A stretch of DNA of 64,000 nucleotides from Eledone cirrhosa. Its lineage: Eukaryota. Shown here piece after piece: positions 26,715 to 59,139 of the stretch (position 1 is the first letter of the stretch; each line of letters begins with the position of its first letter). The translations under genes and the position numbers were made by a program. The stretch spans positions 79,298,001 through 79,362,000 of the forward strand of contig OZ024740.1 of the NCBI GenBank assembly GCA_964016885.1, written 5' to 3'. The notes under the pieces are model-generated. The model did no database searches, was not told the origin of the DNA, and was given only the letters and a program-made list of their open reading frames with translations.

Positions 26715-26751
26715 TTTTTGAAAAGCATTTAGAAATGCGCAACCGGTAAAA
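26715..26751 (+). ncRNA. Hammerhead-like motif in the 3' pLTR (U3-A8 core, A13C lesion)
   Basis: ttt-TTGAAAA-gcattt ag aaatgc-GCAA-ccgg-TA-aaa; homologous to 51019-51060. Confidence 0.65.
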
Positions 26752-27045
26752 ACTTAAAAACTTAAAACCACAACTGAATACTAACCCATACAATCACTAA
26801 TACTCTTTTATTCCTAATTAAACCATTTTTCAACTGTGAACAATTTGTCAGCATTTTCTATTCCGTTTACCAATATATATATATATATATATATATATAT
26901 ATACATACATATATATATGTGTGCTATATGGCAGGACATGGCAGCGATAATGAGGGACAGAGACTGCTGGAGAGAACTCGTCCATGGATCTCGGGAATTT
27001 TACCCGCCTTAGATATATATATATATATATATATATATATATGTG

Positions 27046-27225
27046 TGCTATATACTACGTTCCTAGTTTTGGAGTTAATTTGTGGGCTTAATTTGCAGAC
27101 TATGCATTTGTATGGAGGGCAGCCCATAGCATAGGAGAAAGGATAAATGAACACTAGTGAGAACTCCAGGATAGGAAGAACTCATCAGTATTCCACCAAC
27201 ATGCCAAAATGAAACATGGGGTCAC
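27046..27225. pseudogene. GIY-YIG fragment of a family-B relative with an internal inversion
   Basis: Minus strand CIVCKLSPQINSKTRNVVYS; plus strand AHSIGERINEH...SSVFHQHAK. Confidence 0.75.
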
Positions 27226-27269
27226 ACAAAATATATATATAAATATATATATCATTGCGATTGTATATG

Positions 27270-27680
27270 TTCAAGAACATCGATTTATCCCAAAGAAAAC
27301 GATCCAGACAATCGCTCATAATATCGGCAAGAGTAATCTGTTTACTGCATCAGCATAAAAAATGACATTGGTGCTGTAATTGGAGGAGTTAGTTTGACAG
27401 TACAAACACACCTCCTTCCTCTACTTACAAAGTTAACCAAGGTCTAGAGAAATCCCAAAACTGTTGTTATTCACCCCACAGTCACCTGCCGGAAGAGGAA
27501 CTGGGACAGTTTTACCATCAACTCAGTGTTACTGTCTCTGAAGTACCCCCTCATGCCATACTAATTATTGGAGGAGACTTCAACGTGTAAATTAGAGGCA
27601 AATTGTCATACCACCAGAGTACTAACAGAAACGGCACATTTCTTGAACAGTAGTTTCTACATCAACTTAATCTCTTTTTA
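27270..27680 (+). pseudogene. Decayed LINE (RTE-like) AP endonuclease
   Basis: FYHQLSVTVSEVPPHAILIIGGDFN and TNRNG motifs. Confidence 0.7.
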
Positions 27681-29239
27681 AGAAGTCGAAATGGAAACAA
27701 TCAATGCCAGATTTACCATTGTGCAGGGCCTCGTTGGCTAGGAAAGGGGGGGGGGGGTATCTTCCTGTCCCAAAAATGTTTTACCTCCTTCAGGGCCCAA
27801 GTAAGGGACCTCATAACTTAACTAGTACAGGACCTCATTTGTCCTAAATCCAGCACTGGAAACTATGGACTTGGAGACACTCAGATGGGCATCTTTCCGA
27901 AATTGTACTGACTGAGTTTTTACCTTTATAGTTTAGTGTTTATCAGGTATTTATATTGAAAGTTGCATCTCAGACCTTACATTACATATCATTTTATTTT
28001 ATTGCATTGCATTTGGGATTTTATTATAGTTTTTATTATATCTTATATTTCAAATATAACTTATGTACACCTTATATTTAACTTACTGGGTATCTTATAC
28101 TTCACATGTGATACTACTTTCTAATACCACATGTCTGAGTAGCAGACCTGTCAACTCTTCCCGTCCGATGGGGACATCTCCCAACCACTTTCGGGTGGGT
28201 GAGAGATGTTTCCTCTTGTGAAAATGAGTATAGATTTCATTATGTAAAATCTCCCCATTTTGCCTCATTTTCTCCCCGCTTTGGGATACTTTTTCTCCAT
28301 GGTACACTTCACATGTGATATAATTTTCTAATACCACATGTCTCAGTAGGATCCCCCATACCAATAGCTTCAACTAGATATTAATCGGTATCATTCATTA
28401 ATTACATTACACTACCTCGTTTACATATTTACAATCCAATAATTATATATTTAATTATTCCCCTCACCCCATGAAATTTATTCACTGCCTAACATTCTAT
28501 ATAGTTCTCTTGTATTATAACTACACAGAGACATACTACACAATGGAACATTAACCATTAATCTACACCTTAGCTTTCTATATTTTTATATTATAATAAA
28601 TAATTATATTATATTCCATATGGAATCTAATATTGAGTGACTCATAAGACCCAATAATAGCTAAGGATATTAATTTATTCTATTTTATTTTATTTTATTT
28701 TTAATTTCTTATTTTTTCAATTTTACCTTCAACTATATACTTGCATTTTTATCCCTAACCACCATCCATAATTCTATCATCATTATCATTAGCATCATTA
28801 TTAAAAATTATCTGTTATGCGTTACATTACCGACTGACCGTCTGATGAATTTCCGAATTACACACAAGACGCCAGAATTTGTTTCCATTCCTTAATTAAT
28901 TAATTAATTTCCTCCTCTTCAGTACATGAATATAGTGGGCACTGGTAGAGCTATTGAAATATATATAGTGCTTTTTGCAACTATAAAACTTTAAAGGGAT
29001 ATCACCAATCCGGCCTCTAGTTGTTTTAATCAAATTAATATTTAACTCCGTTCCTGCACCAGCCACGGAATTCAACATCAACGATGGATGATTTGCATAA
29101 CGTAGAGTGCTTTTCCTACTATTACATCATGATTAACTAAACCTAATGACCAGTTCTATCCATTGGTAAATCACAAGACATAAATGAATATATATATATA
29201 TATATATATATATATATATATATATATATATATATATAT

Positions 29240-29424
29240 AGTAATAATAATAAATTTGAAGACTAAAATCCAAAGAGGGCTCGATAAGGATAAATATATA
29301 TCAAATATATAAGAACCGTAGAGCAAATATTTATTAAAATAACAGATTAAAGTTTAAGCAAAGAAGATCCCGTTAAGGGTGAAAGCAGCGATTCTTTGCT
29401 TAAACTTTAATCTGTTATTTTAAT
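29240..29424. mobile_element. Fold-back family D element
   Basis: Inverted tail plus end (29240-29365) joined at agaa microhomology to a forward HHR 3' half ending at ttttaat. Confidence 0.88.
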
Positions 29425-56847: not shown

Positions 56848-56939
56848 TATATATATATATATATATATATATATATATATATATATATATATATATATAT
56901 ATATATATATATATATATATATATATATATATATATATA

Positions 56940-57311
56940 TTAAAATAACAGATTAAAGTTTAAACTAACAAAGTCAATCTGTAAACGCAGAAGTGAATAT
57001 TTCAAAAAAACGTGTAGAAATATTCAGATGTTGTTTCTGCATGATTAATATAAGTCAATAGAATGCTCTACCGAGGGAGCCAAATAGTAATAATAATAAA
57101 TTTGAAGACTAAAATCCAAAGAGGGCTCGATAAGGATAAATATATATCAAATATATAAGAACCGTAGAGCAAATATTTATTAAAATAACAGTTTAAACTT
57201 TAATCTGTTATTTTAATAAATATTTGCTTTACAGTTCTTATATATTTGATATATATTTATCCTTATCGAGTCCTCTTTGGATTTTAGTCTTCAAATTTAT
57301 TATTATTACTA
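56940..57311. mobile_element. Composite family D insertion
   Basis: Minus copy lacking the HHR core, ~70-bp foreign spacer, then ~110-bp near-perfect tail palindrome centred on gtttaaac. Confidence 0.85.
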
Positions 57312-57432
57312 TATATATATATATATATATATATATATATATATATATATATATATATACATATATATAATTCTCCCTCCCGAGAATATTTCACTTGTAG
57401 CGGTCAATTGAAGAATTCGTCCTTACATTGAG

Positions 57433-57523
57433 GTCTCTTGAAAAGCTGATAGCCTCACGGCTCCAGTGCACTTTAGCTGCCCACTGTCTGCATACCACTC
57501 GGCAAAAATTGTACAATCGGGAC
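57433..57523 (+). ncRNA. Degenerate hammerhead, U3-A8 variant
   Basis: gtctc-TTGAAAA-gctga...tcggc-AAAAA-ttgtacaa-TC-gggac. Confidence 0.6.
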
Positions 57524-57589
57524 TTTGAATAAAAAAATTAGGTATATTTTGTCTATTTTGTCTTCACATTTATAATTGTTGACGCTAAA

Positions 57590-59139
57590 CTCCACCAGTT
57601 GCAGACTTCGCATCAACATGAGATATCAGGCGGATCCAGCAGGCGACACCGACGCTCACGCAACGTAACGTGGTTCAATCCTCCCCATAATGCCGAGGTG
57701 GCAACACCTATCGAGAAAATCTTCTTTAGACTCCTCGAAAAACACTTCCCACTACAACACCGCTACCACAACATAATCAACAAAAACACCATCAAACTCT
57801 CCTACAGCACCACACCTAACTTCGCACAAAACATCGTCTCCTAAAACAACAAAAAACTCAACCCCTATGGAAGAAATAACATAGACATCAGTGGAGAGCC
57901 GACCAGGAGGTGTAACTGCCCTGATAGATCTACGTTCCCCCTCAACAACAAATGCCGAGAACGTAACGTGATCTACCAGTGCAACGTGAGGACGGACACC
58001 TCCAACAAAGCTTATATAGGATTAACCGCGCGTGACTTCAAGACCCGGCTCTATCAACACCGACATACTTTCCGAAACCCGGTCCGGCGACATGCCACTA
58101 CACTTTCGGGCCACATTTGGGACCTCCAAGATAATAATATAACCTACAATCTCACTTGGAGCTTACTGTCCAAAGCTAACTCTTACACGGGAGGACGCCG
58201 TCCGTGTAACTTATGTTCGGAGGAAACATTACAAATGTTGTTTTCGAAGGACCAACTCCTAAACAAGAAAGAGGAACTGGTAACCGTATGCAAACACAGA
58301 TTGCGTAGGACTTACCTCGCCCTCAAACCCCATAACGACCCGGGTGGGTAGACAAGGGCTGATACCCCCCTACTTGCCGAATAAGTTAGGGGAAACCTCA
58401 GCTTACTGAGGTAGATGTATCTCTTTTCTTTTCTTTTCTTCTTTGTCTTCTTCTTCCCCCTGTTTCTTCCCACCCCCTATTTTCTTTCTCGTCTGCTTTT
58501 CCCCTTCGCCTACGCCGATGCAGCCCATCGGGCCTCTGTAGCATCAATTCCTCCACCCCTGTAATTTTAAGATAGAATTGGCCGAATACGTCTTACTAAC
58601 TACTTATAGCAGACGTGTTAAACCCCTTTAATTCTGTATCACTTCTGGTACTACTCAATTTCTACAATCTAATTTTCTCACTATCTAATTTTATATATAT
58701 ATTTTTATTTATTTCTATTATCTTTTATTTCTCCTACTCTCATTCGATTTACCTATTCTATAACCTCCCTCCTCCACTTCATACACTAGCCTTAGAATCT
58801 GCTGTATACATATCACTTTCAAGGCTTGACCGCTCCACTCACTCCCCTATTGTTCTACAGTCAAGTGCAGCCACCCCTACCTCCCACCAAATGCCACGAT
58901 AGACATATTTGTGTTTACAACAAATTTTAACCAATCCTCTTGACAACTACAATCTTCCCATATAAGGCTATTTATTCACCAGGCTAAAAATTCTAGTTTA
59001 GTCCAGAAATAGCCGTTGAAACGGCTTGACCTCTGCCGTCGGCGTCATACTTTTTCCTATTTCCAACTCTACTACCCTAAGTATTGAGTACTCTGGTGCG
59101 TTATGGTCCATCTGGTTCCTTACCACAATTCCTTCGTTA
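57590..59139 (+). mobile_element. 5'-truncated PLE, coding parent of family E
   Basis: RNVTWFNPP..KHFP..IKLSYS linker; ORF 57968-58351 IYQCNV..AYIGLTARDFKTR (GIY-YIG); ends in family E pLTR with decayed HHR (TTGACAA core near 58940) and tail. Confidence 0.88.

What the first reader, a model, noticed from the sequence alone, without database searches (positions are those of the whole stretch)
26715..58950. Hammerheads with a covarying U3-A8 core in at least three distinct family groups
Seen: the canonical CUGANGA is replaced by UUGANAA at 31116 and its mirror 29488-29581 (TTGAGAA), ~58940 (TTGACAA), 37802-37893 (TTGAAAA), 57438 (TTGAAAA), 51019-51060 (TTGATAA) and 26718 (TTGAAAA). Stems and the GAAA/NUH context are largely kept, though 26718, 57438 and ~58940 have lesions. 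Established: C3 and G8 form a tertiary Watson-Crick pair in the active HHR, and U3-A8 is a rare compensatory variant. Inference: the double change recurring across families implies selection for cleavage, and CTGANGA-based searches would miss these motifs.
Basis: partly seen in the sequence, partly recalled or inferred. Interest (0 to 1): 0.8.

Follow-up and report, generated by a model that had tools for sequence, protein, structure and literature searches.

The report
Variant hammerheads in Penelope retroelement families
Several families of Penelope-type jumping genes in this animal genome carry a predicted self-cutting RNA motif with an already published U-A swap in its core; one family also spread to over 1,300 copies with that pair broken, so cutting (untested here) is likely helpful but not required.

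Summary
Six of the seven cited sites are real type I hammerhead motifs with U3-A8, belonging to five repeat families. Three of these families are Penelope-like elements (PLEs) with a linked ORF; two are non-coding units. The seventh site (~58940) is misread: that TTGACAA is an upstream look-alike, and the true core is deleted in this copy.

U3-A8 in PLE hammerheads is published (Cervera & De la Peña 2014, ~1,300 hits in Schistosoma; Perreault 2011). The scan also noted it before on other DNA (88 earlier findings).

Covariation holds between families: 14 C3-G8 and 6 U3-A8 clusters, none mismatched, and two likely switches among homologous copies in one superfamily.

It fails inside the family of 31116. 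Genome-wide exact counts are U-A 3,660, C·A 1,313, U·G 15 and C-G 5. The C·A copies form a ladder of successive subfamilies between an older and a younger U-A clade. The 26718 'lesion' (GCAA for GAAA) is fixed in 30 of 30 young copies.

Core and stems are nonetheless conserved across subfamilies (1 of 39 sites variable, versus 30 of 88). Verdict: a known variant, likely under soft selection. Cleavage is untested.

The parts
31111..31204 (+). Type I hammerhead motif, family A (subfamily A1); U3-A8 core at 31116-31122, GAAA at 31177-31180, GUC site ending at 31199; long stem II, hairpin stem III with a near-palindromic loop
   Evidence: 40 copies 100% identical over 121 nt among 40 scored of 1,357 candidates
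29488..29581 (-). Mirror copy of the same motif, in the other arm of one inverted insertion
   Evidence: arms differ at 1 of 160 nt around the motif
29473..31332 (.). 5'-truncated family-A PLE insertion: minus-strand 3' end (30707 to 29473) plus an inverted partial pLTR (30708-31332), flanked by (TA)n
   Evidence: in other loci the same DNA continues into the EN gene
57845..58351 (+). Hydra-type endonuclease end of family A (subfamily A2)
   Evidence: CxCX5C, CxxC and CxH motifs read in L351/L354; no Pfam hit
58936..59153 (+). Family A2 pLTR copy with the hammerhead core deleted; TTGACAA at 58940 is upstream, non-core sequence
37802..37893 (-). U3-A8 hammerhead motif of family C (non-coding unit of about 600 nt, partial tandems); this copy has G10.1 to A
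   Evidence: 26 of 30 copies called TTGANAA
57433..57523 (+). U3-A8 hammerhead motif of old family D (homologous to C); this copy has G12 to A plus an extra A
   Evidence: 23 of 30 copies TTGANAA
51019..51060 (-). Minimal U3-A8 hammerhead motif of family E, 438 nt behind its EN; family-fixed U10.1·U11.1 mismatch and weak stem I
   Evidence: 28 of 30 copies TTGATAA
51471..52970 (-). Broken RT-EN ORF of family E (Neptune/Nematis-type)
26715..26752 (+). Minimal U3-A8 hammerhead-like motif of young family F with fixed C13 (GCAA at 26739-26742), 988 nt behind its EN
   Evidence: GCAA in 30 of 30
22088..25732 (+). Near-complete PLE ORF of family F in three frames: N-terminal region, RT (PF00078), GIY-YIG EN (PF01541) with a CX4CxxC linker

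Best explanation
These are type I hammerhead motifs with the published U3-A8 core at the 3' ends of several Penelope-like retroelement families and related non-coding units, and they likely act as weak, probably dimer- or protein-assisted self-cleavage sites that help but are not needed for copying. Shown: the motifs, their families, their position behind the EN gene in families A, E and F, conservation of core and stems across subfamilies, and amplified lineages with a broken core. Inferred: U3-A8 keeps the 3-8 tertiary pair isosteric, so cleavage of the multimeric transcript would be retained. Selection on cleavage rate is soft, so a source element can carry C3·A8 or C13 through many rounds of copying; in family A the pair was later re-formed (likely U-A to C·A to U-A).
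For: Descriptor with free positions 3 and 8: C-G 65 and U-A 10 of 89 hits, versus 0 and 2 in twice as much shuffled DNA. Of 28 multi-copy clusters, 14 are C-G and 6 U-A by majority; none is C·A or U·G; 8 look like low-complexity or overlapping calls. In one homologous superfamily, 12 copies split 8 U-A and 4 C-G with none mismatched, and a single U-A clade is rejected (11 rows, p-AU 0.004). Across 9 family-A subgroups, 1 of 39 core and stem sites vary (the one change keeps a G-U pair), versus 30 of 88 loop and flank sites (p 4e-5); the 5' half alone has 0 of 14 variable (p 0.009). N7 and the stem II bulge drift freely. Soft selection: C3·A8 1,313 versus U3-A8 3,660, U3·G8 15 and C3-G8 5. C3 is seen independently in 34% of depth at 31116 in run X1. 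C3 copies are not one clade (p-AU 4e-7, core letters masked). Mirror-arm divergence: A2 5.5%, C·A lineage 3.0%, A1 1.9%. C13 is fixed in a young family. Published: hammerhead mutants do not affect insertion of an anole PLE in vitro, and its ribozyme needs protein (PMC11167929); minimal PLE hammerheads cleave poorly (PMC4209133).
Against: No cleavage or expression data exist for any site. The hammerhead fold of 31111-31204 (-22.6 kcal/mol) is not the minimum-energy fold (-25.0), and none of five sites folds better than shuffles (z from -1.04 to +0.06). The root of the family-A tree is not fixed: no outgroup was found, the A1 copies used for dating were picked as identical to the query and so lean young, and the A3 versus A1 age difference is borderline (p 0.057). 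C·A-lineage copies could have been moved in trans by a U-A element, although they carry their own long RT-EN frames (550 and 481 aa). Recombination between subfamilies could mimic the ladder. The second switch in the superfamily rests on one copy (L183).
Confidence: 0.65

Rival explanations
1. Strict selection for cleavage: every amplifying source element needs an active ribozyme. The C3·A8 and C13 forms are then themselves active, for example through a protonated C·A wobble or a shifted C3-G7 pair.
For: Family-level covariation. All other core positions stayed fixed throughout the C·A period. N7 is G in 96 of 100 listed C3·A8 copies, versus 79 of 100 listed U3-A8 copies, and N7 became G on the branch where C3 appears.
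Against: Single 3/8 mutants abolish cleavage in a PLE hammerhead (C3G and G8C; PMC11167929); C·A itself was not tested there. No C3-G8 rescue lineage arose (5 copies, background rate). Several unrelated core defects are fixed in abundant families (C13; U·U plus weak stem I).
Confidence: 0.17
2. The motifs no longer cleave. They are kept as an RNA structure or sequence recognised by the element's RT/EN protein, or simply hitchhike, and U3-A8 is an inherited relic.
For: Most family-A copies hold only the 3' half of the motif: depth is about 20-fold higher 3' of 31165 in X1. Hammerhead folds are not the most stable folds. Core-defective families thrive.
Against: The 5' half, which most copies lack, is also invariant across subfamilies (0 of 14 sites). 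The pattern of free sites (N7, bulge, loop II) and fixed sites matches catalytic requirements. Paired switches C-G/U-A occur among homologues.
Confidence: 0.18

Closest known systems
U3-A8 minimal hammerheads of Schistosoma mansoni Cercyon PLEs (Cervera & De la Peña 2014, PMC4209133; main text parts 1-2 of 4 and supplement passages read)
   Same: Type I motif in PLE repeats, U3-A8 core, palindromic stem III, mostly dispersed truncated copies, inverted pairs; about 1,300 hits there, missed by the CUGANGA descriptor. Families B, E and F match this minimal architecture.
   Different: Here U3-A8 is spread over Hydra-type and Neptune/Nematis-type PLEs and non-coding units. Family A has a 5-bp hairpin stem III and a long loop II. 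A fixed C3·A8 lineage and a fixed C13 family are not described in the parts read.
Natural U3-A8 core variants (Perreault et al. 2011, PMC3088659; section 8 and passages read)
   Same: C3-G8 covaries to U3-A8 in several natural ribozymes, and such swaps were already shown active in vitro; a U10.1·U11.1 mismatch, as in family E, is also reported.
   Different: There they are rare cases. Here U3-A8 marks 6 of 20 credible multi-copy clusters in one genome sample.
Hydra clade PLEs (Craig et al. 2021, PMC8557442; section 11 and passages read)
   Same: Short element, C-terminal EN with a CxCX5C linker, CxxC and CxH motifs, DKT motif, insertion in (TA)n, hammerhead present.
   Different: That paper reports canonical hammerheads in Hydra; family A has U3-A8 or C3·A8. 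Its supplementary files were not read and may list such variants.
Metazoan non-LTR retrozymes as non-autonomous PLE derivatives (bioRxiv 10.64898/2026.07.22.740005; part 1 of 5 read)
   Same: Families C and D are short non-coding units with a type I hammerhead, sometimes in partial tandems.
   Different: C and D are mostly dispersed, truncated or inverted copies rather than long tandem arrays; circular RNA was not tested.

Membership tests
Type I hammerhead ribozyme | Three helices around the core with an open stem I | tested here: met
   Met for 31116/29576 and for the majority forms of families C, D and B; weak stem I in E and F
Type I hammerhead ribozyme | Core U4 G5 A6 A9 G12 A13 A14 A15.1-U16.1 H17 intact | tested here: met
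   Families A, C, D, E and B; copy-level lesions at 57438 and 37893
Type I hammerhead ribozyme | A13 present (family F, 26718) | tested here: not met
   C13 in 30 of 30 copies
Type I hammerhead ribozyme | Watson-Crick pair between positions 3 and 8 | tested here: inconclusive
   U-A at all six window motifs, but C·A in 1,313 genome copies of family A
Type I hammerhead ribozyme | Match to Rfam hammerhead models | tested here: not met
   No hammerhead hit listed; the canonical C3-G8 motifs of the window were not listed either, so the test is insensitive here
Type I hammerhead ribozyme | Self-cleavage after H17 | not testable with these tools
   Needs an in vitro assay or raw RNA reads
Penelope-like element | RT plus C-terminal GIY-YIG EN with the hammerhead in the pLTR behind it | tested here: met
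   F: PF00078 and PF01541; motif 988 nt (F), 438 nt (E) and about 1,100 nt (A) behind the EN
Penelope-like element | Inverted 5'-truncated copies, optional tail, microsatellite targets | tested here: met
Penelope-like element (families C, D) | Own RT-EN ORF | tested here: not met
   No ORF in about 600 nt of shared sequence; unit repeats in tandem; likely non-autonomous
Hydra clade (family A) | CxCX5C linker, no CCHH, CxxC and CxH at the EN end, DKT, (TA)n insertion | tested here: met
   L351/L354 translations; DKT codons read; criteria
Hydra clade (family A) | Phylogenetic placement with reference Hydra elements; RWK motif | not tested
   No reference sequences were held; the tree has only this genome's ENs
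Neptune/Nematis clades (families E, F, B) | CX2-5CxxC linker, CCHH in the EN, DKG motif | tested here: met
   Read from the translations; which of the two clades was not tested

The most novel reading that the evidence does not exclude
Family A is a dated natural record of a ribozyme's tertiary base pair being broken and re-made. A C3·A8 hammerhead served as the source element through several successive subfamilies (more than 1,300 copies) and stayed catalytically active through a C·A wobble or a shifted C3-G7 pair, before U3-A8 returned (or arose twice from it). This would be a natural active mismatch core and a directly visible compensatory intermediate.
Probability: 0.2. Interest if true: 0.6.

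Novelty: new member of a known kind. Interest (0 to 1): 0.33.

Why it matters
The headline (U3-A8 hammerheads in PLEs, missed by CUGANGA searches) is already in print, so on its own it adds examples. What the genome adds is a natural test set for the open question of whether PLE hammerheads need to cleave. It offers near-identical sister subfamilies with U-A, C·A and again U-A cores, and a young family with C13, all of which amplified. Assaying four or five short RNAs would show whether transposition success tracks cleavage rate.

Tried and rejected
Rfam scans returned only microsatellite-driven miRNA matches.

Single-strand folding gave no support above shuffles.

'58940 is a core' was rejected. 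'26718 is a copy lesion' was rejected. 'The C3 copy L089 is a one-off mutation' was rejected.

Rooting family A by EN protein left it unresolved inside the family. The nearest sister family (EN 50% identical) has no comparable motif, and no full copy of subfamily A4 was held.

A genome search for family B returned nothing because the search skips common words; this is uninformative, and B is described from the sample only.

No RNA holder was listed. Runs X5 and X6 had only 4 and 2 contigs and do not help with the order of events.

The first site-class count was inflated by end gaps and by G8-picked copies, so it was redone without gap columns. Mirror-arm groups were corrected by hand: L163 and L177 moved to A2; L346 and L350 to the C·A group; L349 and L359 dropped as not true mirror pairs. 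One sporadic C3 copy (L360) was left out of the trees; it was included, with the same result.

A possible C3-G8 relative of family D (L114) is a single copy with an A9 lesion and was not counted.

Literature searches for a natural C3·A8 lineage or A13C found nothing relevant. Lünse et al. on small PLE hammerhead variants, Przybilski & Hammann 2007 on 3-8 exchanges and Martick & Scott 2006 were not held (titles seen only in reference lists) and may already cover these variants. One of two supplement files of PMC4209133 was not searchable.
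Full report
Setting. The window is G000:C1:79298001-79362000 of a 3.0-Gb animal genome. It is packed with microsatellites and fragments of Penelope-like elements (PLEs), including RT and GIY-YIG frames.

Observation. Six of the seven cited sites are type I hammerhead motifs with U3 and A8. 31111-31204 and 29581-29488 are the two arms of one inverted, 5'-truncated insertion in (TA)n, so they count once. The ~58940 site is misread. Aligned with 29 other genomic homologues, its TTGACAA is upstream sequence, and the true core is removed by a 23-nt deletion in this copy; the subfamily (A2) does have U3-A8. 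The heptamer alone is uninformative (63 occurrences), but the full structure is not chance. On 1.264 Mb of this genome, a descriptor with positions 3 and 8 free gave C-G 65, U-A 10, C·A 6, U·G 1 and 7 others, versus 0, 2, 0, 0 and 19 others in twice as much shuffled DNA.

Families. Family A (31116, 29576, 58940) lies about 1.1 kb behind an EN with CxCX5C, CxxC and CxH motifs and an RT with DKT; these fit the Hydra clade as defined in PMC8557442. Families F (26718) and E (51053) lie behind related ENs with a CX4CxxC linker and CCHH (72% identical); a third relative, B, has an intact minimal U3-A8 motif. The RTs of A and F barely align (67 residues at 30%), and both EN groups have C3-G8 relatives in this genome, so at least two origins of U3-A8 are likely. 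Families C (37888) and D (57438) are homologous non-coding units of up to about 600 nt. Their stems I and II resemble family A, so they may share its origin (inference). 'Three or more families' is right; 'three or more independent double changes' is not shown by the window.

Covariation between families. Clustering of relaxed hits gave 28 clusters with two or more members: 14 C3-G8, 6 U3-A8, none C·A or U·G by majority, and 8 that look like low-complexity or overlapping calls. One superfamily holds both states in homologous sequence: 8 U-A and 4 C-G copies, none mismatched. With the two sites masked, a single U-A clade is rejected (p-AU 0.004), though the second switch rests on one copy. Across nine family-A subgroups, 1 of 39 core and stem sites vary, versus 30 of 88 loop and flank sites (p 4e-5). 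The 5' half alone is invariant (0 of 14), while N7 and the stem II bulge drift. This is purifying selection with a hammerhead-shaped footprint.

Results against strict selection. A C3·A8 copy in the sample (L089) proved to represent an abundant lineage: 30 of the 30 best matches fetched have C3 and A8. Exact genome-wide counts with the same 26-nt context were U3-A8 3,660, C3·A8 1,313, U3·G8 15 and C3-G8 5. G8 appears at about 0.4% on both backgrounds (odds ratio 0.93, p 1), that is, as copy-level decay with no rescue lineage. The pattern excludes A2, so the U-A count is a lower bound. Contigs of run X1 show C at 31116 in 34% of depth and list no change at position 8. In trees blind to positions 3, 7 and 8, C·A copies form a ladder between a U-A clade (A2 and A5, support 100/99) and a second U-A clade (A1, 99/94), and their monophyly is rejected (77 rows, p-AU 4e-7). 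Divergence between mirror arms is 97/1751 in A2, 97/3228 in the C·A lineage and 27/1393 in A1 (p 0.003 and 0.057). This suggests U-A to C·A to U-A, but A1 was sampled with a bias to young copies and the tree has no outgroup, so two C-to-U changes from a C·A root remain possible. C·A copies carry their own RT-EN frames of up to 550 aa. Family F is young (96-100% identical to the window copy), has a near-complete ORF, and has C13 in 30 of 30 copies. Family E has a fixed U·U closing pair and a 2-bp core-adjacent stem I. The hammerhead fold of 31111-31204 is 2.4 kcal/mol above the minimum-energy fold, and no site folds better than shuffles.

Mechanism. Shown: the position of the motifs, their conservation and their exceptions. 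Inferred: the motifs cut multimeric PLE transcripts at low efficiency, probably as dimers (palindromic stem or loop III) or with help from the element's protein. U3-A8 keeps the 3-8 pair, and selection is soft enough for broken cores to amplify. This agrees with PMC4209133 (low in vitro activity) and PMC11167929 (a protein-assisted PLE hammerhead whose mutants still insert in vitro; passages). One hint for an active mismatch form: N7 is G in 96 of 100 listed C·A copies and turned G where C3 appears, which would allow a shifted C3-G7 pair. This is speculative.

Prior knowledge. Natural U3-A8 was reported by Perreault et al. 2011 (section 8). It was reported in S. mansoni Cercyon PLEs, with about 1,300 hits and the same remark that the standard descriptor misses it, by Cervera & De la Peña 2014. 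The C3-G8 pair is described in PMC3884650 (passages). The scan holds 88 earlier findings on U3-A8 PLE hammerheads, one on the GCAA family in this genome; a word search for a C3·A8 subfamily found none. Paper searches found no report of a natural C3·A8 lineage or of A13C, but three key papers were not held.

Verdict. This is a new member of a known kind; interest 0.33. The C·A lineage is the part worth an experiment.

Noticed in passing
L301-L330, L346-L365 (G000, genome-wide): Family-A lineage with a fixed C3·A8 mismatch core, at least 1,313 exact copies, lying between two U3-A8 clades; N7 is almost always G.
   Followed up: yes
window 19486-19522 (+); also about 29365-29400; L044, L071: An abundant Hydra-type family (58 hits in the held loci), nearest sister of family A by EN, ends in a hammerhead-like remnant with CAGAAGA (U4 to A), stem II and GAAA, but no clear stem I or III; fixed across the copies shown.
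   Followed up: partly
window 20797-20839, 45887-45929, 45578-45536 (-), 3752-3790, 5430-5468, 44935-44973, 15293-15353, 37104-37164, 13533-13479 (-), 43260 (-), 39272 (-): Canonical C3-G8 hammerhead motifs of other families (one copy, 45574, has a copy-level G8 to A). Two families linked to the EN type of 43947-44678 have a non-palindromic GAAC or GATT in stem III.
   Followed up: partly
window 33731-33691 (-): Decayed C3-G8 member (A9 to C) of a superfamily in which C3-G8 and U3-A8 sister families coexist.
   Followed up: yes
window 53050-53269, 63608-63826; many sampled loci: Most family-A copies are short palindromic insertions holding only the 3' half of the hammerhead, truncated within loop II; depth is about 20-fold higher there than over the core.
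   Followed up: partly
L083, L089, L074 (about 310-nt units); L068, L071 (about 466-nt units): Tandem retrozyme-like arrays with canonical minimal hammerheads.
   Followed up: no
L247, L197, L114 upstream of families C and D: A shared CACGTGAT-like box followed by CCCTCC about 80-90 nt before the core, possibly a promoter element.
   Followed up: no
L117:2439-3220, L102:9552-9720: Two further U3-A8 families outside the window, one behind a Hydra-type EN only 34% identical to family A.
   Followed up: partly
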